From NCBI GenBank assembly GCA_048882325.1, contig JBHLRS010000006.1:32001-96000 (forward strand): a stretch of 64,000 bases of DNA, written 5' to 3'. Shown one piece after another: positions 3,731-46,497 of this stretch. Position numbers and translations under genes: made by a program. The first letter of the stretch is position 1; every line of letters begins with the position of its first letter. Under the pieces are notes generated by a model that did not search any database, was not told the DNA's origin, and worked only from the letters and a program-made list of their open reading frames with translations. The DNA is from Candidatus Thorarchaeota archaeon. GTDB lineage: Archaea; Asgardarchaeota; Thorarchaeia; Thorarchaeales; Thorarchaeaceae.

Positions 3731-6700
3731 ATGTTCGATATCGAGTCCTTCTTCTTCTGGCTCAGAGATATCAGCATCTTCTTCAACTACAGCGTAAATG
3801 TCTGGTTTAGCTACTATAGCAGCTCCACCAATTCTCTTTCTCCTTTCTGCTACAACTTCTTCCATGACCTGTTCTACAGATTTGTTCTGTATACCTGCGA
3901 CTCTAATTGCTTCCTGACTAATTACCTCTCTTACGAAACTGGTTTGCTGACTCAACTTCATCTTTGATATCTCAAATTTGAAGTCATCAAGCTCTTGTTG
4001 AGTCATTTCAGTAAGTATAGCGAGGTCAATAATCAGTTCATCAATTTCAGGCACTTCTATTTTGACTGATTCTGCAGGAATTTGCGAAGCTTCTCTTTTA
4101 ATTCCAACTGGATCATGTAGTTCATTGAATAATTCTGCGACGAGGGATTGTCTTGATCGCACGCCCCTAGCTGGTTTAGGTACTCTACTTCTACGTAATT
4201 GTCTAACCTGACCACTAATTATCCTGATTATCTTTGGCACTCTTAGAATCCTTACCCATACAACACCGAATAGAATCAGGAAGATGGCAAAAGCACTACC
4301 GTAAGTCATTGCGTTCTGCAGAGCAAGATCTTCTTCAGATGGACTTACCGAAACTGAAATCATTACACTGGCTGTTTCATAGTATGTTTTATTGAAGTGA
4401 ATTGTTACTTCCGTGACACCAGCTCTTCTTTTAGCTAATACTCTAAACTGATAATATCCATCGCGACTTTCATCAGGACCTAGATATTCGACAGTGGCAA
4501 ATTGGGGTTCAGAGTTATCAACTATGATACGAGCCTCGGTAATTCCCTCTCCAGAATGACCTAGCCACGCATCGGAATAATAGATCCAAAATGTTGCGTT
4601 CATTCCCCAGTGAAGTGACAGTGCTGACGGTCCTTCCACCTGAAGACTAGTTTGAATCTTGATAATCGTGATCTCGAACACGAATACCGCGGTGGTGTGA
4701 TTTTCTAACATGAATTGGATGTTAAATAATATTGTCGCACCTAAGCCCCAATCAAGTGTGTTGAAAGCGAATGAATAATTACCATTTCCGTGATCGGACA
4801 AAATAAGTGGTTCTTCGTAGACTCTTGGTCCTGTATAGAACGAGTTGTTGGATATTGCGTCTGGAATCCCTCTTGCACCATAGGTGTCATTGTATAACAT
4901 GGTGACCGTAAGTGTATCTCCGTATGGTACTTGTAGTGTTGTCCAGGAATCTCCAATTCGATACAGTTCAGGGAGAAGAATCGAGATGTCCGTGGGGACT
5001 GATGCAATATGAATTCTAATCGTCAATTCTTCATCCTCATAGTTTGCCTTTCGGAACTCCACTGTGATCGTGTAAGTTCCCGGGTTTAGTTTTGATGTAT
5101 CAACTGGAATGCCATAGATTCCTTCACCAAGATATACAGCACTACCTGATCCTCCTGCCCAGGAAAAAGCGGAAAAGTCAGCCTGAATACCTTGTGCATG
5201 ATAACTATCATAGTAGGTGACATTGACAAAACCTGTCCCGCCCCAAACAAACTCATCAGTTCCTGGTGAAAGAATAGTTGCTTCTAGATTTCTCACATAT
5301 ATCGATGTAGAATTATCCGCCCTCTCGTAATCCTGATTGGGTGAATTGGCTGAGATGATGAATGTGTGAAGCGCGGCAATTCCTTGGCTTGTGTCGAAGT
5401 CATAGTAGTAATAACCAGGACCTCCAATTATGGGTCCATTCACTAATGTTCCATTTGTGCCGAGTTCAGGTGAGTTCCATGTAACATTCAGACCGTCTAA
5501 TCCTGTGGAGTACGGATGTGTTGCGTTAAGGGCTGGAGCTAGAACATAAACTCCAATTCTGACAATATCGGACCAGTACACAGATGTATATTCGTAGCTT
5601 AAAGTAGCATTATCGAGCCATACTACCATCTGTATCTTTGAAATTGCCATAATCAGAGTCGCGGATGCATTACCATAGTTGTATTTTGAAGCCCGTAGAC
5701 GAATCTGGTAACTTCCATATCCCGCATTTCCTGTAGGTATTTGAAGTCTGTAATGCCCCTGTTCACCTGATATCTCAGTCACTGTCAAATTGGTGTCATA
5801 CACCCAGCTTCCTACAAGGGTTGCCTCAGAAACATAAGTGCCGTCAAGGATGTCCTCTAGATAGACCTCAACCACAGCAGTAGCGCCATATGATACGGTG
5901 AAGACATAGCCTTCTTCAGGGATGATTTCCATTGGTCTTGGTAAAAGTCTGAAAACCAGCTGATAAGAAGCATCAATATAGTTTGGTGCACTACCTTCAA
6001 TTCTAACGATAATTGTGTCCGATATTACGCCCAAACTAGTATCGAGAATTGCTGTGTAGTTACCTGGCACACCAGTGGGTACAAATGAATCTATGTAGCC
6101 ATCCCAATCATATGTGATTGTCGCTATCGAAACAGTCTGATTTCTAAGTGTATCATTAATTGCTGCAAATATGGTGAGAGGCTCACCCCAGTATATATCG
6201 CTAGTGGCTCTTGGTCCACTCCAAGTGACAATCAGCTCGGATGGAACAGCAAGAAGGTTGATCTCTACATTCAGTGAAGAGATTGAATAGCGAAGCAGAT
6301 TTGCTTGCACAGATAAAATTTGAGAGCCATGACTCAAACTACCTGTCTGAAGAGTTAGATTATAACTACCATCTCCAAGATCAATGTATGACGACAAATC
6401 TCCCCATGTCAAGGTCAGTGAGGCTCCTGCAAGTGGGTTGTCGTCAGCATCATAATCAACGAGGTATATCATGGCTGATGTAGTATAGCCTGCATAGTTT
6501 GTAGGTGCAATAACTGCAGAGAGTCCTGCAACTCTCTTCCTTAATCCGAAAACTACAGATGTTTCTGCTATCTCGTATTGTGAGTGGTTGATTGTTACAA
6601 GTACAGATTGTAAACCAACAGTCAAGGAATCTACCATGCTCAATGTAATATTGTACTGTCCACTACCTAGTGCTAGAACTGACCAGGACGATGGTGCTAG

Positions 6701-9700
6701 TCCTGTTGATTCATAGATTAAAGAAATCTGCCCCTCTGCACCATTTATTGGCTGTCCATGATCCGTGTCCAAAAACTGAAGCACAAACGAAACGTCTTCA
6801 TAGAATGCTACAACTGAGGGTGATGGTAAGTCACTTGAAACAGATGTCTGAATTGCGCGAACTAATCCTTCTGCTTCTGGTGCAAAGGCAGTCATGTAGT
6901 ATGGAACTACTAAGGCGCTCCATTGAACTTCAATATCAAAACTGAAGGTTCCAAGGCTTCCTAATGAGGATGTGCTGACACGTATTGTATACTTCCCTGA
7001 ATCAACACCAGTTCCCATTTGGACCCAGTAATCCACTCCTTCAATGAGACCTGGAGCCTCAAAGCAATCAAAGACTATGATTGCACCTTCAATTGGATCC
7101 CCTGTCGACTGATCAGTGTACATCAGAGTGACGTTCATGAGATCCCCAAAAGGCGTTTCCTCAATTTGACCCAGCTCGATGTTTCCAAGTCTTCCTACTA
7201 TATCAACAAAGACTGAGGTCGCATCATCTTTGTAGTATGGAGCACCCGTAGTCCACTCAATCTGAATTGTTATGTTCCAATCGCTCACCAGGATTGCGCT
7301 TATGACAGTAGAATTGATTTTGAGTCTGAAAATCGAACCAATCTGCTGAATCACATACTCACCATATGCGAGAAGTGAAGTGTCACTGTATATCTTGACA
7401 TCACTAATAACAACTACAACACTTTCACCAGTTGATAAATCCACGAATGCAAAATCTAAGGTCATATTATCAAGGTACAATATTTGACCTGGTGGAAACA
7501 CTATCTCAACACTAGCAGATCTCTCAGTAACAGGGATATTGATATTTCGTTGAGCATCCTGGTAATGTGGAGGTCCTGCAGACCAATTGGCTACTACTGT
7601 TATTGTCTTTACTCCTGGAGGCCCGAGAGCAGATGTGTCCAATGAAAAAGCATAGAGACCGGGACTCGTTTCACTAATTTCATAGTCAACTGTGGGCTGA
7701 AGTAATGCTAATCCAAAATAGAGGTTAATTGTTCCACCAGTAATTCCTGATGATGATAGAATGTCCTTATACAGAATGGTGAAGTTTACGTAATCCTGAT
7801 AGTGCGTTTGAGAAGGTGACGAAATCAAGTCCAGACTTGTATCCCGTTCATGTATTTCGAATGGTACTAGTATCTCATTCCATTGGTAGAAGGGTGCTTC
7901 AAATTCGGAGCTGAAATTCAACCAAAGATGATAGGTTCGTCCTATCTCTATTACTTGATTAGAGGTTTCAACTGTGAGTAGGTAGTTCTGTTGTGATGGT
8001 CGCCAAGTACAAGTAAAGATCCAGTTGGATCCATTGAGTATCTCTAAGCTGGTCATGACACCTGTATCGTTTCCTATCGCAAAAAGGGAATCAAGGTCCT
8101 GGTAGTACAGAACTACACTGAATGAGCTTCCATATGGGATGGATCCAACAGGCTCAGATGTCAATAGAGTGTCTCGAAAACTGACCTCAAGGGTTTTTGT
8201 AGCACTTCTGGCTTGATAGTAGAACTGAACAGACGAAGCTTCCACTCTAAGTGAATAAAGTCCTGGCTTACCAAAGTATGATACATTCAGATTAACTAAG
8301 TATTCTCCAGACCCTAGATCTGTAATCTGAACATGACTAGAGGGAACAACTGTCACCCCGAAATATATGTCAATCGTGGCTCCTATTACCATCTTGGAGG
8401 CTGAACCTGCAATATCTACAAATGTCACAGTGAAGGTTGCATTATTACCAAATGGAGTTAGAGGGGGTGTAGGATATGTCAGAAGGGTTTGACGTTCTAT
8501 CAGTGTTATATCTATGATTCGTCCAGTGACGTTTGAATAGAATGGCAATCCACTCCAGGTAAGATTTAGGAATAGTTGTCTATCTCCTAGTGGGGCACCA
8601 AGCTGACTCGTGTTGAATGAAACTATGTATAATTCCTCAAGAGCATTGTAACTCAATGTGAAATCAGGCACATCTAGTAACACCGTCATGGCAGCTGGAT
8701 TATAGTCTATAGGACTTGAGAGTCCTCCCGTTGTATCTTCATAGGTGAAGGAGAATGTAGCATTCTCACCGTAGGGTACACTGGTTGGTGGTATGATTGA
8801 TAGTGATGCAGTCCTTGGAAGTACTCTCACTGAAATCAAGTCAGTCCTGTTTGTATAGAATGGAACCACATTGGCAGACCAGTTGATGAGTACCTTCATT
8901 GAAAAGATACCCGTTCCACTAATAATCGAATTGTTGAATCCGATTGAGTATTCCCCTTTCCTATTGACGCTGTCTATTTCCCAGATGTCCACTTGTGACA
9001 GATCCACAGTGACACCAACAAACTCAACACTAATGAAAACGTTGAATGTGTCGTTCGTGATGCCGCCTGTAGATGGGCTTGAATATAGGAAAGTGTAGGT
9101 CATGTAGTCTAGGCATGGAGAAGGAAGAGCTGCTTCAATCAGTGTGAGTTCTGTATCTGCACCAACTATTTCAACTGTAATGGATAGGAACCTGTTCTCA
9201 TACTTTTGGATGCTTCCAGTCCAATTGAAGTAGACTGTGAGTTGTTGAACTCCAATACCTCCAAACTGCAAGGCAACAATTGAAATGGTATAGTATCCAT
9301 CTCCTCTTGCCGTGTCATTATCCCAGGTAGTTGCTAATTGGTGGGTTGCATTCCAGACAGTACACTGAACATCAGAAGATACAATTCCCTGCAAGTGATC
9401 CCGATCCCCGTAATAAACTGAGATATTGATTGTTCCATCTGAAGTTGTGTCATCTACTGGTGAGAGCAGCCTGAGCTCGGTCCTAATGGAGCGAATCACA
9501 ACAGTGACATTGAATGATGCTGATTCATATTCTGCTCCGAATGAAAAATCAAAGACAAGCAGGTACAACGCTAAAGCATCGGTATCAAAGGTGTTGATGG
9601 TGACACTGTAACGGTTGCCCACCCACACAATGTCATAATGAACTGGAGTCCAGTTACAGCTATGACTCACTGTTAAGATTGGTAGGTCATGGTCCATGTC

Positions 9701-40913: not shown

Positions 40914-41705
40914 GTGCGGATTAGAATAATGAAGGGAAACGATCCAATGCACGAGCGACTTCACTCAGAACTTTACGCATCTATTGCTACGCTTGACCAG
41001 CTGAAGAAACTCTACGATCTTGGTGCAGTGGATATTCGGTCCTACCAACGCGAGTCACAAGCGCTTCTCAACGATGTTCGTTCACAGATTGAGAATATGC
41101 GTCGTCTGGGTCTTGATATTGGACGATTTGTGTCTAGTGAACGTATTATCGAGGTCTTTCCGGAAGCATCGACGCTCCTGCGACTTGGCAACCTTGCACC
41201 ACGAAGTACTCCTCAAGGGATGACTATGGACCAATTCTATGACTATGTTGGATTGGCAATACTTGATGTTGCCACAGAGCACTCATCACAGGGACTCATG
41301 GGGCTCGCTGAACTTATTGTCGAGGTTGTACGCCGCCTGCCCGAACTTGAATCAGTGACATACAATGATGTCATTGAGGCTGTGAACCGAGTTGCCGACA
41401 ACGGACTTATCCCTGGAATTCGGACTCTCCGTGGTGGTGTGAAAGTTGTAGAACTGAGGCCGCTTGAACTCCGACGCGACCAGGCTGATGTGATCAATCT
41501 AGCTGCTAGCAAAGGGTATGTGTCAGTGGAGGAAGTCATTATGCAACTCAAGTGGTCAGAAGATCATGCCCGACAAGTCTTATCGAGCTTGGTCGATGCT
41601 GGAATGGCTGTCGCAGACATTCGCTTTTCAACGGGTGGTCGATACTATTTCCCTGGTCTAAGAGCACGCGATACTTCGGATCCTCGAGGAACTAGTGCAT
41701 ATTGA
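40914..41705 (+). CDS. Vps28 N-terminal-like domain fused to EAP30/Vps22/Vps36 (ESCRT-II) winged-helix domains
   Basis: N-terminus SELYASIATLDQLKKLYDLGAVDIRSYQRESQALL resembles Vps28 AELYSII.TL..LEKAY..D.I....Y...C..LL. C-terminus DQFYDYVG..GLMGLAEL..DVIEAV..ELRRDQADVINLAASKGYVSVEEVIMQLKWSEDHARQVL..YYFPGL resembles EAP30/Vps22. Confidence 0.85.
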   Translation: MRIRIMKGNDPMHERLHSELYASIATLDQLKKLYDLGAVDIRSYQRESQALLNDVRSQIENMRRLGLDIGRFVSSERIIEVFPEASTLLRLGNLAPRSTPQGMTMDQFYDYVGLAILDVATEHSSQGLMGLAELIVEVVRRLPELESVTYNDVIEAVNRVADNGLIPGIRTLRGGVKVVELRPLELRRDQADVINLAASKGYVSVEEVIMQLKWSEDHARQVLSSLVDAGMAVADIRFSTGGRYYFPGLRARDTSDPRGTSAY

Positions 41706-41707
41706 TT

Positions 41708-42442
41708 CTATGTGGAAACGATAATTGCACCTCGTTTCTCATCAATCCATTCTGCTAATCCTTTCTTCACCATGATTGCCAGAACTATGTGAATATCCCT
41801 CTCTGGGAGAGTAGCAAAGTCTTCATCAACTTCTTGGATGACTATTGACTTCACATCAAGTCTAAGTTTTCCTGTCTTCAAAGCCCAATGGTATAGAATA
41901 TCTGCCCAATCCTCAAGTGGTTTCCAGTAAACTCTCAGCTGTCGTTTCTTTTTATCAACCCACTCAGCAACCTCTTTGTCCACAAGGACTGCCGCAATTT
42001 CCTTGAACGAATCGACTTTGTTCCTTAAATCCTTGAAAGGGGGCTCACTTATGAATGTCGCCAGAGATATAATGTGCACCTTCTTGTCCTCAGTCCACTC
42101 TAAGAGATAGTCTGACCATTCACCCGCCCAGAGTTCCCTGTCTTCTTCTCTAGTAGGCGTTCCATACATCCACTCAGTTTCTTCAACATCTCCCCAACTG
42201 GGCATGATAAAACCAGAATCAGTGGTCAGGGTTTCCATTACTTCTTCAGTCGCACTCTCAGTCTGTTCTTCTTGTTCTTCTGTTACTACAGGTTCAGTGA
42301 CCTCAACAACAACTTCTGGACTATGGATTTCTTCTTGCACTCTTGTTTTTTCAACAGAAGGAACCTCAACTTGCTCTTGTTCTACTGCCTCGGCTTTTTC
42401 CTTGGTCTTAGGTTTCTCTCGTTTTTTTTCTCTGACACCCAA
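41708..42442 (-). CDS. vps25: ESCRT-II Vps25-like protein with acidic low-complexity N-terminal extension
   Basis: WAGEWSDYLLEW, AEWVDKKKRQLRVYWKPLEDWADILYHWA, and a second WH ending GLAEWID. Directly downstream of vps4. Confidence 0.85.
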   Translation of the reverse strand: MGVREKKREKPKTKEKAEAVEQEQVEVPSVEKTRVQEEIHSPEVVVEVTEPVVTEEQEEQTESATEEVMETLTTDSGFIMPSWGDVEETEWMYGTPTREEDRELWAGEWSDYLLEWTEDKKVHIISLATFISEPPFKDLRNKVDSFKEIAAVLVDKEVAEWVDKKKRQLRVYWKPLEDWADILYHWALKTGKLRLDVKSIVIQEVDEDFATLPERDIHIVLAIMVKKGLAEWIDEKRGAIIVST

Positions 42443-42445
42443 TCT

Positions 42446-43654
42446 TTAGGAACCCTCCGCCCAGTCAATGTATCTCTTGACATCCTCTGGAGGGGTTGCA
42501 GGTCGAATGTTTTCTATTGCATGCAGGAAATCATCCCTGGATACGGGACGGATGTCGAGTATCTCCTGCTCATCATCCATTCTACCAGTCCGTTGCAAAT
42601 CCCTGATTGGTTCCATTGCCGCCTCACGACACACGACACTAATGTCTCTCCCACTGTATCCTTCAGTAAGGTCAGCGAGCTCCTCATATTCTACAGTGGG
42701 TGAGACCTCGATGTCTTCGATATGAATCTCGAAGATTTTCGCACGGGCTTCTCTGTCGGGAAGTGGAACATGTATCTTCTTTTCAAACCTCGACCGTAAT
42801 GCAAAGTCCAACTCCCACGGCAGGTTTGTTGCACCGATGAGCGTTACCCGGTCATCCTCATTACTCGCCAGTCCTTGAAGTTCAGTTAGTAACTGCGTCT
42901 TCAGTCGTCTCTCTCCACCAACATCATCCCCTGATCTTGACACCCCAATTGAATCCAACTCATCAATGAAAATTATTGCAGGTTGGTTCTTCCTCGCAAG
43001 TTCAAAGAGGTTCATGACGAGTCGTTCAGATTCACCAAGCCACTTGCTCACAATATTTGCAGCTGAAACATTGAAGAATGTGGCATTGACCTCAGAGGCT
43101 ACTGCTTTCGCTATCAAAGTTTTTCCGCATCCCGCTGGCCCATAGAATAGGATTCCCCTCCATGGTTGTCTCGCCTTGCCTATGAATAATTCCGGATGCT
43201 TCATGGGTGCTAGAATCGCGTCTTCAATTGCTTGTTTTGCATCTGCTAGCCCGGCTACTTCTGACATCTTGATACTCGGACGTTCTGTGATTATTGTATC
43301 AGAAATCATCTCTCTGAGTCGTTTCTCTTCCTCATCAAGCTCCGGTTCAGCACGTGTGGTTGGCACTGGTTCTGCAGTACTTTCATCAACCTTAGGTGGG
43401 GCAACAAGACCGTCAACTGGGCCATGCGATTTCTTCTTTATACCTGAGAGATATCTGACCCTGTCTACGCATTCTTGAGCTCGGTCAAAGTAGTGCTTTT
43501 TGATTGAAGGCAATGACGCAGAGTTTGACAGTTTGATGAGGATCTTACTAGCCTTGAGATACTCCTGGCAAGCCTCCTTCTTCATCCCCTTATTGTCCAA
43601 TTCTATTGCTTTGGCAAGTAGTGCTTTCAGCCCGTGGTCTACTCGATCCGCCAT
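42446..43654 (-). CDS. vps4: Vps4 AAA+ ATPase with N-terminal MIT domain
   Basis: MIT (AKAIELDNKG..EACQEY), PWRGILFYGPAGCGKT, SKWLGESERL, IIFIDELD, GATNLPWELD..RSRFEKKIHVPLPD, TEGYSGRDI. Confidence 0.95.
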   Translation of the reverse strand: MADRVDHGLKALLAKAIELDNKGMKKEACQEYLKASKILIKLSNSASLPSIKKHYFDRAQECVDRVRYLSGIKKKSHGPVDGLVAPPKVDESTAEPVPTTRAEPELDEEEKRLREMISDTIITERPSIKMSEVAGLADAKQAIEDAILAPMKHPELFIGKARQPWRGILFYGPAGCGKTLIAKAVASEVNATFFNVSAANIVSKWLGESERLVMNLFELARKNQPAIIFIDELDSIGVSRSGDDVGGERRLKTQLLTELQGLASNEDDRVTLIGATNLPWELDFALRSRFEKKIHVPLPDREARAKIFEIHIEDIEVSPTVEYEELADLTEGYSGRDISVVCREAAMEPIRDLQRTGRMDDEQEILDIRPVSRDDFLHAIENIRPATPPEDVKRYIDWAEGS

Positions 43655-43656
43655 GT

Positions 43657-43672
43657 GAGTTCATGTGAACTC
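43657..43672. promoter_or_regulatory. Inverted repeat immediately upstream of the vps4 start codon
   Basis: gagttca-tg-tgaactc. Confidence 0.35.
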
Positions 43673-43776
43673 TGCCTATATGGTGTTAAGAATTTCTGTC
43701 ACACCCGGTACATACACACACTATACAAACAAGTTGACGTCAATACTCTTTTCAGTCGTATGCGCATTGTTAAGCT

Positions 43777-44049
43777 GTGACAGATACAACTAATCACTAT
43801 CCTGTCGACATGATGGAATGGCGAGACTGGATCAAGAAGAATCTGGGTTATACAACAGAACAGGGAATCGAGTTTGTTCGAGCTGGCACTTTTCCGGTAT
43901 CGGAGCTTGTAGCGGTTTGGCGACAAGAATTCACTGTAGAGAAAGGGTATGTTGCTGATTTCATCCCGGCCTTAGAACGTAATAAGATGGGCTTCTTGCG
44001 TTGGATATATGCTGACGGAGCTGAGCCTTTTTGGAAAGAATCTGATTGA
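43777..44049 (+). CDS. Small hypothetical protein inside the ESCRT locus
   Basis: 90-aa ORF filling the gap between vps4 and ESCRT-III, with globular, Trp-rich composition. No family recognised. Confidence 0.65.
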   Translation: MTDTTNHYPVDMMEWRDWIKKNLGYTTEQGIEFVRAGTFPVSELVAVWRQEFTVEKGYVADFIPALERNKMGFLRWIYADGAEPFWKESD

Positions 44050-44132
44050 ATTAGTTGATATCTTCTGTTAACTACGAAGGTTTAAACGCTATCCTCCCAT
44101 TGATTGACCTGAGTTAACACACATAGAGTAAG

Positions 44133-44750
44133 GTGAGATTCTTGAGTCCAATTAGAAAGGCATTCTCCTGGGGAAGAAAGAAACCAGATATTGGTGAGAT
44201 ATCCAGCCGTCTAAGGATTCTATCTAAACAACTAGCACGCCAGAGGAACAAGTTGGAAAAGGAGGAACGAGATACAAAGGCACGTGCAGTTCGCGCAAGA
44301 AAGGCTGGACAGACTGAGGCGTACCGAACATATGCAACAGAAATGGTACGGTTCCGTAGATATGCTCTCGCGGTTGATAAATCACGGTTACAAATTCTGA
44401 AAATTCTGGCTCACCTGAATCGCGCTCAGACATCCGCAAAAACCACTATAGCACTCCAAGAAGTTGCCAAGATATTAGGGATGCTTGGTGATGGCACTGA
44501 TGCTTCAAAGGTTGTTGCAAATGTCGATGAGATTGCTCGACGCCTTGAAGAGTTTGAGATTGAAGCAAGTATATCTGACGAAGCTCTCGATTCAACGATG
44601 GAAGTGAGTTCAGAAGACCTTACATTTGCCTTTCAGGAAATTGATGCTGAAGCTGGGCTCGCAGATACACCAACTGCTGCAAGACCTGCTAGCGAGGCTG
44701 AAACCCTAGAGGAAGATATCAAAGCGCTAGAACGGGAATTGGGAGTATAA
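44133..44750 (+). CDS. ESCRT-III subunit, Vps2/24/46 class
   Basis: Basic helical hairpin LRILSKQLARQRNKLEKEE..KAGQTEAYRTYATEMVRFR, acidic C-terminal half, C-terminal MIM-like LEEDIKALERELGV. Adjacent to vps4. Confidence 0.9.
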   Translation: MRFLSPIRKAFSWGRKKPDIGEISSRLRILSKQLARQRNKLEKEERDTKARAVRARKAGQTEAYRTYATEMVRFRRYALAVDKSRLQILKILAHLNRAQTSAKTTIALQEVAKILGMLGDGTDASKVVANVDEIARRLEEFEIEASISDEALDSTMEVSSEDLTFAFQEIDAEAGLADTPTAARPASEAETLEEDIKALERELGV

Positions 44751-44752
44751 TA

Positions 44753-46312
44753 TTACCAGAGCTGGTCTCGACTCTCTCTTGTTGCCCGTTCCATCTCACG
44801 CATGTTGTGATACGAATCTCTCATCAGATCTCTATATCGCCTGATGAAGTCCTCAGCAACAAGCTGACCACTGCGTAGCATGTGTACTGTATCCCGAATA
44901 GCAGTTTCAATTGACGCAGCATCTCTTCTCAGTGAGTGCATTCTTGGACTCATATCATAAGTGTGACTTGTACTCGGTCTCCTATCATATTGTCCAATAA
45001 CTCGATCGAGCTCCTCTCGGAATGACTCTGGTTTTTGGTAGTAGCTATCGTATGGGTATCGCCGAATTGGTGGTGAATCCAAATCACTGGAACGATGTCT
45101 TGGACCTGGTCGCATCAAAGGCATATCCTCACTATACTGTGACCTGTCATTTGTCGAGAGAAGTGAGTAAACCATTCCCTCAATCTTCAGTCGAACATCA
45201 CTAGTGCCGATATCAGTTTGTTCGATTTTCCTGACTCTCTGCATATCTGTTTGGATGTATTTGTCAAATTTTCTTGCAATCTCGATATAATCAGGTAGGA
45301 CTCTCTTTGTTTGGTCTGAGCATGTTGCTTTAATCTCGCCTTGTTTCAACTTCAACACAAGCCGTTTTCTTAGCCTACCGTCTTCCTCAATGGACTTTAG
45401 ATAGAGGAGGGGAAAATCGAATACCGTTTCCATCTTCTTGCGAACCCTGCCGGTTTCAGCAATGAAGAGGAGTCTCTTGTTCGTAATGTACAGAGTCCCA
45501 AACGCCTTGTCATTTTTCAGAAAATCACTCCCTGCTATCTTAACCTCTGGGAGTGCACAGACAGGAAGCTCACCTACTGCGAGTTGACCGTGCTCGTAGA
45601 ATGTGGTGAATTGTCCCTTGTAATAATCAAGACCATCAAGCTGTCGCCTCACATCCTTTAGTGTTCCTCTGAGGGGTTCAAGTGCCTCGTCAACATTCTG
45701 TTTGTAGTAGATCCCCATTTCTGTAATTCTGTTTGTTATCCCCTCAACGAATGGAAATTGTGCTGGTTTCCATTGTGTATAATCTATGAAATCCTTTGTT
45801 TCTGCAGCCATGCGTTTTGCTATGATTTCAGCTTGACTTGAAATCCTATTCTTGATTGCTGGTAGCTCATTTTGAATTCCTTCAATCTTCTCCTCTATCC
45901 ACTTGTAATGCAGAAAATTAGCCATCCTGAGGGACACAAGTAATCTCTTCGCGCTAGACAGTTTGTTCGTGAACTCTCTGAGTTTTGTATGACCATATTG
46001 GATGGTCATAATGGCATGTCGCATATCAAGGGCCAAGGTTCTTCTTCTATCTTCAAGGAGCACAACTCTCGATGAATGGCATCTTGAACAGATGTCCACA
46101 GTCTTTCTTCCTTTGCTCAGTTCCTCTGATTCACACTGAGGACATTTTTCAAATTTCTCGCCCGGCATTGGAGTACCAAGAATGTGGTGACATTCGCTGC
46201 AAACGGTGTATTCACTAGACCTAGATTCAAGACATCCTGAACACAGTGCAGCACCACAATCTTCGCACATATGAGTAGGCCTTTCAGTCTGACAGGATCT
46301 GCATTGTCCCAT
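44753..46312 (-). CDS. Zn-finger + coiled-coil + PH/GRAM(GLUE)-like + C-terminal steadiness-box-like protein (putative ESCRT-I Vps23/37-related)
   Basis: Six CxxC pairs at the N-terminus, long coiled coil, FGTLYITNKRLLFIA (PH-like), Pro/Arg-rich linker, IETAIRDTVHMLRSGQLVAEDFIRRYRDLMRDSY. Start taken as ATG 46312 (track start is TTG 46330). Confidence 0.8.
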   Translation of the reverse strand: MGQCRSCQTERPTHMCEDCGAALCSGCLESRSSEYTVCSECHHILGTPMPGEKFEKCPQCESEELSKGRKTVDICSRCHSSRVVLLEDRRRTLALDMRHAIMTIQYGHTKLREFTNKLSSAKRLLVSLRMANFLHYKWIEEKIEGIQNELPAIKNRISSQAEIIAKRMAAETKDFIDYTQWKPAQFPFVEGITNRITEMGIYYKQNVDEALEPLRGTLKDVRRQLDGLDYYKGQFTTFYEHGQLAVGELPVCALPEVKIAGSDFLKNDKAFGTLYITNKRLLFIAETGRVRKKMETVFDFPLLYLKSIEEDGRLRKRLVLKLKQGEIKATCSDQTKRVLPDYIEIARKFDKYIQTDMQRVRKIEQTDIGTSDVRLKIEGMVYSLLSTNDRSQYSEDMPLMRPGPRHRSSDLDSPPIRRYPYDSYYQKPESFREELDRVIGQYDRRPSTSHTYDMSPRMHSLRRDAASIETAIRDTVHMLRSGQLVAEDFIRRYRDLMRDSYHNMREMERATRESRDQLW

Positions 46313-46497
46313 TAGTGAATCTTTTGTCAAATGAGTACCTCCGGTCGTCTATTTACATCGAGGAGTTATCCAAGAATAACCCGTGTATTATTCGGGAAAC
46401 ATTGGAGTATCCCTCTTCAAATGTTCAGAAAGTATGTTCAAGCCATATCAGTTATAACCGGCTTGATAGGCTGGAGCTTAAATCAAAGGGGATTTTC

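What the first reader, a model, noticed from the sequence alone, without database searches (positions are those of the whole stretch)
40914..46312. Candidate new ESCRT architecture: a domain-rearranged, apparently ubiquitin-independent ESCRT-I/II module
Seen: six clustered genes, namely Vps28N-Vps22/36 fusion (+), Vps25 (-), Vps4 (-), a 90-aa unknown (+), ESCRT-III (+) and a Zn-finger/coiled-coil/PH/steadiness-box protein (-). No ubiquitin, E1/E2/E3 or UEV gene is in the window. Known: in eukaryotes the Vps23 steadiness box and Vps28 N-terminus form the ESCRT-I headpiece, and Vps28-CTD bridges to ESCRT-II via Vps36, whose GLUE (PH) domain binds lipid. Inference: the same parts are distributed differently here. 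Vps28N is covalently on ESCRT-II, and the PH domain sits on the steadiness-box protein. One hairpin-hairpin contact would then link a Zn-finger/PH sensor to Vps22/36-Vps25, ESCRT-III and Vps4. I cannot confirm from the sequence that this is unpublished.
Basis: partly seen in the sequence, partly recalled or inferred. Interest (0 to 1): 0.92.

Follow-up and report, generated by a model that had tools for sequence, protein, structure and literature searches.

The report
Thorarchaeial ESCRT cluster, already described
This is the standard ESCRT membrane-remodelling gene cluster of Thorarchaeia, with a Vps28-N/Vps22 fusion and a zinc-finger/PH/steadiness-box protein in a lineage that lacks ubiquitin. 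It is real and conserved, but its parts and the missing ubiquitin are already published.

Summary
Window 40947-46330 encodes a Vps28-N/Vps22 fusion, Vps25, Vps4, one ESCRT-III and a 525-aa Zn-finger/coiled-coil/PH/helical-hairpin protein.

- **Conservation:** the five genes keep the same order in 8 of 10 other Thorarchaeial genera sampled.
- **The 90-aa ORF:** it lies in a ~345-bp insertion found only here and on one JGI contig, so it is not part of the conserved cluster.
- **The fusion:** its N-terminal 88 residues match the N-domain of 12 of 12 genuine Asgard Vps28 proteins (22-66 bits). The full-length fusion occurs only in the Thor family and one sister lineage.
- **What is missing:** free Vps28 and ubiquitin were found in 0 of 26 genomes of this family, against about 100 of 151 Asgard genomes. 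UEV was found in 0 of 41 and E2 in 1 of 41, a weak hit.
- **The contact:** a complex model supports docking of the Vps28-N domain on the C-terminal hairpin (ipSAE 0.85, best control 0.11).

The mechanistic reading is therefore supported, but it is not new. Makarova et al. 2024 describe the SB-Vps22 fusion and the Znr_PH_CC_SB family. Hatano et al. 2022 report that Thorarchaeota lack ubiquitin and ran yeast two-hybrid assays on the AB_25 orthologues of these genes.

Interest is modest.

The parts
40947..41705 (+). Vps28-N/Vps22 fusion, the ESCRT-II core subunit. It is 252 aa from the ATG used by its homologues. The ORF is also open from a GTG at 40914.
   Evidence: Pfam EAP30 E 4e-14. Family profile against human Vps22 3cuq_A, E 5e-19. 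Foldseek 3cuq_A, E 1.2e-8. 138 homologues, nearly all 245-260 aa and starting at this Met.
40947..41201 (+). Vps28 N-terminal (steadiness-box type) helical domain, residues 1-85 of the fusion.
   Evidence: A profile of residues 1-88 hits the N-domain of 12 of 12 Asgard Vps28 ORFs at 22-66 bits. Weak hits to yeast Vps28 2f6m_B and 2p22_B. The sister-lineage orthologue passes the Pfam VPS28 cut-off with 26.9 bits. AF2 helices 2-24 and 30-54, pLDDT above 90.
41214..41669 (+). Tandem winged-helix EAP30 region of the fusion, residues 90-241.
41708..42442 (-). Vps25 (ESCRT-II), with an acidic, low-complexity N-terminal extension of about 80 residues.
   Evidence: Pfam ESCRT-II E 1.3e-14, residues 104-193. 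Sequence. Orthologue of ThorAB25_09020.
42446..43654 (-). Vps4 AAA ATPase (MIT + AAA + Vps4_C). It lies 3 nt downstream of vps25 on the same strand.
   Evidence: Pfam AAA 4e-40, Vps4_C 23.5 bits above its cut-off, MIT 22.6 bits below its cut-off.
43725..44071 (.). Lineage-restricted insertion of ~345 bp in the vps4/ESCRT-III divergent intergenic region. It carries the 90-aa ORF at 43777-44049 (+). It is not part of the conserved module.
   Evidence: Alignment with same-genus loci. No tblastn hit in 31 related loci. Single copy in this genome. One 64%-identical relative at the same position on a JGI contig. No Pfam or Atlas hit.
44133..44750 (+). ESCRT-III subunit of the Snf7 family, orthologue of ThorAB25_09000, which Hatano labels 'ESCRT3A'.
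   Evidence: Pfam Snf7 43.6 bits. Labels. A second paralogue lies on contig C4.
44753..46330 (-). Znr_CC_PH_SB protein, 525 aa, from a TTG start that matches the homologues' N-terminus. An ATG lies at 46312.
   Evidence: 166 homologues, most of them 515-525 aa. Alignment A1. AF2 model. Orthologue of ThorAB25_08990, labelled 'SB'.
46079..46303 (-). Zn-binding region, residues 10-84. It has 12 invariant Cys: a B-box-like cross-brace (C10...C47) plus a Zn ribbon (C63, C66, C81, C84).
   Evidence: Invariant columns. zf-B_box in 15 of 25 members, best E 8e-6, and DZR in 17 of 25. Weak FYVE/PHD/RING hits in PDB.
45611..46057 (-). Coiled-coil or three-helix stalk, residues 92-240.
   Evidence: AF2 helices 92-136, 143-178 and 189-240, pLDDT 80-95.
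45272..45565 (-). PH/GRAM/GLUE-like beta-sandwich, residues 256-353.
   Evidence: Foldseek hits: MTMR2 GRAM at E 4e-4, EAP45 GLUE 2hth_B and 2dx5_A at E 1.5-1.9e-3 (TM by target 0.55-0.64), and many DH-PH proteins. bPH_3 in 17 of 25 and GRAM in 10 of 25 members.
44759..44947 (-). C-terminal helical hairpin, residues 462-524, the steadiness-box candidate. It follows a disordered linker at residues 394-460.
   Evidence: AF2 helices 462-486 and 492-524, pLDDT 85-93. Vps23_core in 4 of 25 members (best E 0.0035) and Mod_r in 4 of 25. Its profile aligns weakly (10-14 bits) to the Vps23 SB region of Asgard UEV-Vps23 ORFs. It forms the predicted interface with Vps28-N.

Best explanation
This is the Thorarchaeial version of the Asgard ESCRT machinery.

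**Downstream steps (inferred from the eukaryotic and Asgard paradigm).** The Vps22-type subunit and Vps25 form the ESCRT-II core. Vps25 recruits ESCRT-III, and Vps4 recycles ESCRT-III.

**Upstream steps.** The upstream end is wired differently from eukaryotes and from other Asgard lineages. The Vps28 N-terminal domain is covalently part of Vps22, and there is no Vps28 C-terminal domain. This was shown here by sequence homology. The C-terminal steadiness-box hairpin of the Znr_CC_PH_SB protein docks on that Vps28-N domain. This step is predicted, not measured. One headpiece-like contact would therefore join a Zn-finger/coiled-coil/PH protein directly to ESCRT-II. The PH domain probably provides membrane association, and the B-box-like Zn fingers probably bind a protein ligand. 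Both roles are inferred and their ligands are unknown.

**Ubiquitin.** Thorarchaeaceae genomes lack ubiquitin, E2, UEV-Vps23 and free Vps28. Recruitment in this lineage therefore does not use the canonical ubiquitin-UEV route.
For: - **Component identities:**
- **Vps28-N homology of the fusion's first 88 residues:** 12 of 12 Asgard Vps28 ORFs hit at 22-66 bits. The sister-lineage orthologue is above the Pfam VPS28 cut-off and also touches Vps23_core.
- **Clade restriction:** full-length fusion matches occur only in family f1 (26 of 26) and in f2. Elsewhere matches start at profile position ~65-112.
- **Domain order of the 525-aa protein:**
- **Complex model of Vps22 1-85 with residues 455-525:** ipSAE 0.85 against a best control of 0.11. 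That mark was reached by 58 of 80 solved complexes and 2 of 110 mismatched pairs. The runs agree in at least 97% of contacts, and partner pLDDT is at least 84. The interface falls on invariant residues of both families.
- **Synteny:** aaRS-Vps22f-Vps25-Vps4-Snf7-ZnCCPHSB-TldD-TldD in 8 of 10 other Thor genera.
- **Absences in the own genome (93% complete):** no ubiquitin, UEV or UQ_con, and no real Vps28 or Vps23_core.
- **Absences in the family:** ubiquitin 0 of 26, VPS28 0 of 26, UEV 0 of 41, UQ_con 1 of 41 (weak). In contrast, ubiquitin occurs in 107 of 151 and VPS28 in 103 of 151 Asgard genomes. The UQ_con positive control hit 5 of 5 genomes.
- **Literature:** PMC10936438 (SB-Vps22, Znr_PH_CC_SB). 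PMC9192718 (Thor lacks ubiquitin; Thor Vps22 self-interacts; yeast two-hybrid contact between a steadiness-box protein and Vps22).
Against: - The SB-Vps28N contact is a model only. Yeast ESCRT-I headpiece structures (2F6M, 2P22, 2CAZ) are solved, so the pass may partly reflect likeness to them.
- Sequence support for calling the C-terminal hairpin a Vps23-type SB is weak. Vps23_core is found in 4 of 25 members, and one search gives only 10-14 bits in a small database.
- The eukaryotic headpiece has three hairpins, and no third hairpin was identified here.
- The genome carries ThiS/MoaD beta-grasp proteins and an E1-like/JAB pair. A non-canonical modifier therefore cannot be excluded.
- No Thorarchaeon is cultured, and no functional data exist for the Zn fingers or the PH domain.
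- A second, 805-aa EAP30 protein encoded elsewhere may also belong to ESCRT-II and was not modelled.
Confidence: 0.7

Rival explanations
1. The Vps28-N domain on Vps22 serves Vps22 self-association, or binds another SB-bearing protein, rather than the Znr_CC_PH_SB hairpin. The two genes would then be neighbours in one pathway without this direct contact.
For: Hatano et al. report that Thor Vps22 interacts with itself in yeast two-hybrid assays. Steadiness-box hairpins are generic helical hairpins that can pair promiscuously. Makarova et al. note many SB-bearing proteins in Asgard archaea.
Against: The hetero-complex model scores 0.85 against 0.11 for controls, on invariant residues of both families. 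The two genes are linked in 8 of 10 genera. In eukaryotic and other Asgard ESCRT-II, self-association is attributed to the Vps22 body and N-helices, not to a Vps28 domain.
Confidence: 0.15
2. The module still depends on a modifier. A non-canonical ubiquitin-like protein would mark cargo and be read by the GLUE-like PH domain or the Zn fingers. Candidates are a ThiS/MoaD-type SAMP, or the product of the E1-like/JAB operon on contig C41.
For: There are seven ThiS-family hits and ThiF E1-like genes. A 623-aa E1-E2-like protein is followed by a JAB protein. The PH domain resembles the ubiquitin-binding EAP45 GLUE domain.
Against: None of these genes is linked to the ESCRT cluster. ThiS and ThiF are ubiquitous sulfur-carrier genes, and the control genomes also hit them. 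No UEV or E2 was found in 41 family genomes. The GLUE likeness is at fold level only (E about 1e-3).
Confidence: 0.12
3. Ubiquitin, UEV-Vps23 and Vps28 are present but unassembled in this 93%-complete MAG, so the cluster is an ordinary ubiquitin-ESCRT system.
For: The genome has 89 contigs and 93% completeness.
Against: The same absence holds in 26 to 41 other genomes of the family, including single-contig and 97-99%-complete ones, while other Asgard families score about 90-100%. It was also reported independently (PMC9192718).
Confidence: 0.03

Closest known systems
Thorarchaeota AB_25 ESCRT cluster (ThorAB25_08990 SB, 09000 ESCRT-IIIA, 09010 Vps4, 09020 Vps25, 09030 Vps22), Hatano et al. 2022, Nat Commun (PMC9192718)
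   Same: These are orthologous genes of the same lengths, and their consecutive locus tags fit the same gene order. That paper also states that Thorarchaeota lack ubiquitin.
   Different: This genome has an extra ~345-bp insertion with a 90-aa ORF between vps4 and ESCRT-III. The paper labels the 525-aa protein only 'SB' and the fusion only 'Vps22'.
Asgard 'Vps22#' (asCOG cog.002769, Vps22 fused to a steadiness box) and 'Znr_PH_CC_SB' (cog.011556), Makarova et al. 2024, mBio (PMC10936438)
   Same: The domain architectures are the same. That paper also infers that Znr_PH_CC_SB is an ESCRT-I-like component whose PH domain is membrane-associated.
   Different: Three points were found here and were not seen in the text I read:
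- The SB on Vps22 is specifically a Vps28 N-domain homologue.
- The full-length fusion is confined to the Thor family plus one sister lineage.
- It coincides with loss of free Vps28, ubiquitin, E2 and UEV.

Assignment to the asCOGs could not be tested, because no asCOG profiles were on hand.
Eukaryotic ESCRT-I headpiece (Vps23 SB, Vps28 N-domain and Vps37; PDB 2F6M, 2P22, 2CAZ) and the Vps28-CTD/Vps36 bridge
   Same: A Vps28 N-domain pairs with a steadiness-box hairpin that follows a coiled-coil stalk. A PH/GLUE-type domain and Zn fingers are present in the assembly.
   Different: There is no UEV, no Vps37 and no Vps28 C-terminal domain. Vps28-N is covalently joined to ESCRT-II. The PH domain and Zn fingers sit on the SB protein rather than on Vps36. 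The lineage has no ubiquitin.

Membership tests
ESCRT-II Vps22/EAP30 | Tandem winged-helix EAP30 region with sequence homology to Vps22/SNF8 | tested here: met
   Pfam EAP30 53 bits. Family profile against 3cuq_A, E 5e-19. Foldseek 3cuq_A, E 1.2e-8.
Vps28 | N-terminal helical (steadiness-box type) domain | tested here: met
   A profile of residues 1-88 hits 12 of 12 Asgard Vps28 N-domains at 22-66 bits. Yeast Vps28 chains hit at E about 0.1. The G112 orthologue scores 26.9 bits on Pfam VPS28, above the cut-off.
Vps28 | C-terminal four-helix bundle that binds ESCRT-II | tested here: not met
   The Pfam VPS28 match covers only model positions 2-60, and the chain continues as EAP30. No other significant VPS28 hit exists in the genome or in 26 family genomes. 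The fusion is therefore not a Vps28; it only carries the Vps28 N-domain.
ESCRT-II Vps25 | Pfam ESCRT-II domain | tested here: met
   55 bits, E 1.3e-14.
Vps4 | MIT domain, AAA ATPase and Vps4_C | tested here: met
   AAA 137.6 bits. Vps4_C 23.5 bits, above its cut-off of 21.3. MIT 22.6 bits, below its cut-off of 30, but placed at residues 11-69.
ESCRT-III (Snf7) | Snf7 domain | tested here: met
   43.6 bits against a cut-off of 27.3.
Asgard Znr_PH_CC_SB (cog.011556) | Three Zn-binding modules | tested here: met
   12 invariant Cys in CxxC pairs. zf-B_box and DZR hits across the family.
Asgard Znr_PH_CC_SB (cog.011556) | Coiled coil and PH domain | tested here: met
   AF2 model. Foldseek PH/GRAM/GLUE hits. 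bPH_3 in 17 of 25 members.
Asgard Znr_PH_CC_SB (cog.011556) | C-terminal steadiness box homologous to the Vps23 core | tested here: inconclusive
   A confident helical hairpin is present. Sequence support is weak: Vps23_core in 4 of 25 members (best E 0.0035), Mod_r in 4 of 25, and 10-14 bits to Asgard Vps23 SB regions. The modelled interface with Vps28-N is consistent with an SB.
Asgard Znr_PH_CC_SB (cog.011556) | Match to the asCOG profile itself | not testable with these tools
   No asCOG library is available. The link rests on matching architecture and on orthology to ThorAB25_08990.
Canonical ubiquitin-ESCRT-I (UEV-Vps23 plus ubiquitin) | UEV domain protein, ubiquitin and E2 encoded in the genome | tested here: not met
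   Own genome: none at E <= 1. Family: ubiquitin 0 of 26, UEV 0 of 41, UQ_con 1 of 41 and below cut-off. Positive controls worked.

The most novel reading that the evidence does not exclude
In Thorarchaeia and one sister lineage, fusing Vps28-N onto Vps22 made Vps28-CTD, UEV-Vps23 and ubiquitin dispensable. The result would be a minimal ESCRT-I/II supercomplex of Vps28N-Vps22, Vps25 and Znr_CC_PH_SB. Its cargo or membrane cue would be read by B-box-like Zn fingers and a PH domain instead of by ubiquitin. I did not find this wiring, or the co-loss pattern, stated in the papers I read. It would be a natural experiment on how ESCRT targeting works without ubiquitin.
Probability: 0.45. Interest if true: 0.5.

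Novelty: already known. Interest (0 to 1): 0.3.

Why it matters
Asgard ESCRT systems are the closest prokaryotic relatives of the eukaryotic sorting machinery. Thorarchaeia are the one ESCRT-bearing Asgard group without ubiquitin, so they show how ESCRT-I/II-like modules can be targeted without it.

The gene set and domain architectures are already in the literature, so this window adds no new kind of system. The useful increments are these:
- firm evidence that the 'SB' on Thor Vps22 is a Vps28 N-domain;
- its restriction to the clade that lost free Vps28, ubiquitin, E2 and UEV;
- a controlled structural prediction of the contact that would join the two proteins.

That contact is cheap to test biochemically.

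Tried and rejected
- **Weak VPS28 hits elsewhere in the genome.** Hits on C4 and C58 proved to be unrelated coiled-coil, AAA-associated and Zn-ribbon proteins. The Vps23_core hit on C3 is a 56-aa frame at E 0.07.
- **FYVE reading of the Zn fingers.** The best PDB hit is ZFYVE19 at E 0.028. The sequence does not show the basic FYVE motif as I recall it, and B-box hits dominate across the family. I did not pursue this.
- **The 90-aa ORF as an ESCRT accessory factor.** Rejected. It is absent from all related loci sampled except one JGI contig. It has no Pfam hit and no Atlas lead.
- **Whole-model Foldseek of the 525-aa protein.** DH-PH proteins dominate because helices plus a PH domain align together. 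Only the compact PH/GRAM/GLUE hits are informative.
- **Hatano et al. [quoted passage not shown] This is left unresolved.
- **Earlier scan notes.** They held only first-reader notes on the same stretch.

Full report
**What is in the window.**
ORF listing and Pfam scans show a compact cluster.
- A 252/263-aa EAP30 protein at 40947/40914-41705 (+).
- Vps25 at 41708-42442 (-), followed 3 nt later on the same strand by Vps4 at 42446-43654 (-).
- A 90-aa ORF at 43777-44049 (+).
- An ESCRT-III/Snf7 gene at 44133-44750 (+).
- A 525-aa protein at 44753-46330 (-).

The flanks are an Asp/Asn-type class II tRNA synthetase, a 4Fe-4S protein and two TldD/PmbA genes. Source names on the closest database relatives place the organism in Thorarchaeota. 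The window lies on contig C6 of a 3.6-Mb, 89-contig genome that is 93% complete.

**The EAP30 protein is a Vps28-N/Vps22 fusion.**
- Its family (138 relatives, alignment A2) matches human Vps22 at E 5e-19 over residues 90-241. It matches the yeast Vps28 N-domain only weakly, at E about 0.1 over residues 6-70.
- The AF2 model shows two long N-terminal helices at pLDDT above 90, then the winged-helix tandem. Foldseek returns ESCRT-II Vps22 and Vps36 chains.
- The decisive test was a profile of the first 88 residues searched against ORFs fetched around Pfam-defined Vps28 genes of 12 other Asgard genomes. All 12 Vps28 proteins were hit in their N-domain, at 22-66 bits, across profile positions 4-84.
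- The orthologue in the sister lineage (G112) passes the Pfam VPS28 cut-off with 26.9 bits and also touches Vps23_core.
- Across 151 Asgard genomes, full-length matches to the fusion (positions 1-249) occur only in the window's own family (26 of 26) and in that sister lineage. Elsewhere the match begins at about position 65-112, which is the Vps22 body alone.

The fusion is therefore real, clade-restricted, and carries no Vps28 C-terminal domain.

**The 525-aa protein.**
- Its family has 166 relatives, and 25 of them were aligned as A1. It has 12 invariant cysteines in CxxC pairs.
- Across members Pfam finds B-box (15 of 25), double Zn ribbon (17 of 25), bacterial PH (17 of 25), GRAM (10 of 25), and weakly Vps23_core and Mod_r (4 of 25 each).
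- The AF2 model (pLDDT 78) gives Zn fingers at 1-91, three long helices at 92-240, a PH-like sandwich at 256-353, a disordered linker at 394-460 and a confident helical hairpin at 462-524.
- Foldseek finds PH, GRAM and GLUE domains, including the EAP45 GLUE domain.
- The hairpin profile aligns weakly (10-14 bits, in a small database) to the steadiness-box region of Asgard UEV-Vps23 ORFs.
- The family is not specific to Thorarchaeia. It was found in 199 of 301 Asgard genomes, and in 73 of 76 genomes of the own family.

**The proposed contact.**
A controlled complex prediction of Vps22(1-85) with residues 455-525 passed. The ipSAE was 0.85 in three runs against 0.11 for the best of three controls. 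That mark was reached by 58 of 80 solved complexes and 2 of 110 mismatched pairs. The runs agree in at least 97% of contacts, and partner pLDDT is at least 84. The interface (fusion residues 3-40, partner residues 482-511) lies on invariant or nearly invariant columns of both families. This supports binding but does not show it. Because yeast ESCRT-I headpiece structures exist, the pass may partly reflect likeness to them.

**Linkage.**
In 8 of 10 other Thor genera sampled, the order tRNA synthetase-Vps22f-Vps25-Vps4-Snf7-ZnCCPHSB-TldD-TldD is kept. One genus has a local rearrangement. In another, only Snf7 and ZnCCPHSB lie in the stretch fetched.

**The 90-aa ORF.**
It has no tblastn hit in any of 31 related loci. 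Same-genus genomes have a 130-220-bp vps4/ESCRT-III spacer where this genome has 478 bp. The alignment shows a clean insertion of about 345 bp, which is single-copy in this genome. One 64%-identical relative lies at the same position on a JGI contig. The ORF has no family or fold lead. It may be a real, young gene, but it is not part of the conserved module.

**Ubiquitin independence.**
- The own genome has no match at E <= 1 to ubiquitin, UEV or UQ_con, and no credible Vps28 or Vps23_core elsewhere.
- Ubiquitin was found in 107 of 151 Asgard genomes but in 0 of 26 of this family.
- VPS28 was found in 103 of 151 but in 0 of 26.
- UEV was found in 0 of 41, and UQ_con in 1 of 41, below its cut-off.
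- Positive controls worked: UQ_con hit 5 of 5 non-Thor Asgard genomes, including their UEV-Vps23 genes.
- The other Asgard families without ubiquitin also lack Vps22 and the Zn/PH/SB protein, which means they have no ESCRT at all.
- The genome does carry ThiF E1-like genes, seven ThiS/MoaD-type genes, and an E1-E2-like/JAB/transglutaminase operon on contig C41. Only the canonical ubiquitin route is therefore excluded.

**What is already known.**
- Makarova et al. 2024 (PMC10936438) state that Asgard Vps22 (cog.002769) is fused to a steadiness box. They describe Znr_PH_CC_SB (cog.011556) as a likely ESCRT-I component with a membrane-associated PH domain, ancestral in Asgard archaea.
- Hatano et al. 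2022 (PMC9192718) report that Thorarchaeota seemingly lack ubiquitin. They list ThorAB25_08990 'SB', 09000, 09010, 09020 and 09030 'Vps22' among the proteins assayed. They found that Thor Vps22 self-interacts, and they report a yeast two-hybrid interaction between a steadiness-box protein and Vps22.
- A 2023 preprint (10.1101/2023.07.25.550441) notes that Loki- and Thorarchaeia lack UEV-Vps23.

**Verdict.**
The cluster is a real, conserved and correctly read system. The mechanistic inference is well supported in silico. The novelty claim fails, and the 90-aa gene does not belong to the module.

Noticed in passing
window 43725-44071 (ORF 43777-44049 +): An insertion of ~345 bp carrying a Trp-rich 90-aa ORF lies in the vps4/ESCRT-III divergent promoter region. 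It is absent from 11 same-genus genomes. It is present, at 64% protein identity, at the same spot on one JGI metagenome contig (L045). Its origin and function are unknown.
   Followed up: yes
G000:C41 (L011) 4323-8896: A possible prokaryote-type ubiquitin-like conjugation operon. It has a 103-aa ORF, a 623-aa protein with repeated ThiF matches that hits PADLOC 'E1-E2' and BilD models, a 460-aa protein with an N-terminal JAB domain, and a transglutaminase-like protein. It is not linked to the ESCRT cluster.
   Followed up: partly
G000:C36 (L046) 5395-7812 +, protein P0247: A second EAP30-domain protein of 805 aa, with a coiled coil, a beta-sandwich-like region and a C-terminal EAP30 at residues 605-782. 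Similar frames of 777-857 aa occur across the Thor family. It may be a second ESCRT-II-type subunit and was not characterised.
   Followed up: partly
G000:C4:23737-24225 (-): A second ESCRT-III/Snf7 paralogue lies outside the cluster (62 bits). It is probably the ESCRT-IIIB type that Hatano et al. found to bind Vps25.
   Followed up: no
window 42203-42442 (-), Vps25 residues 1-80: Vps25 has a long acidic, low-complexity N-terminal extension rich in Glu, Val and Thr. The extension is conserved in the AB_25 orthologue, but sequence conservation is poor in other genera.
   Followed up: no
L045 4239-5013: On the related JGI contig, the ESCRT-III gene between the small ORF and the Zn/PH/SB gene is called as two short pieces of 36 and 89 aa. 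This suggests a frameshift or an assembly error there.
   Followed up: no
window 46315-46330: The TTG start of the Zn/PH/SB gene (-) and the GTG start of the first TldD gene (+) overlap by 16 bp on opposite strands. Most TldD homologues align only from about residue 60, so the TldD start is probably further downstream.
   Followed up: no
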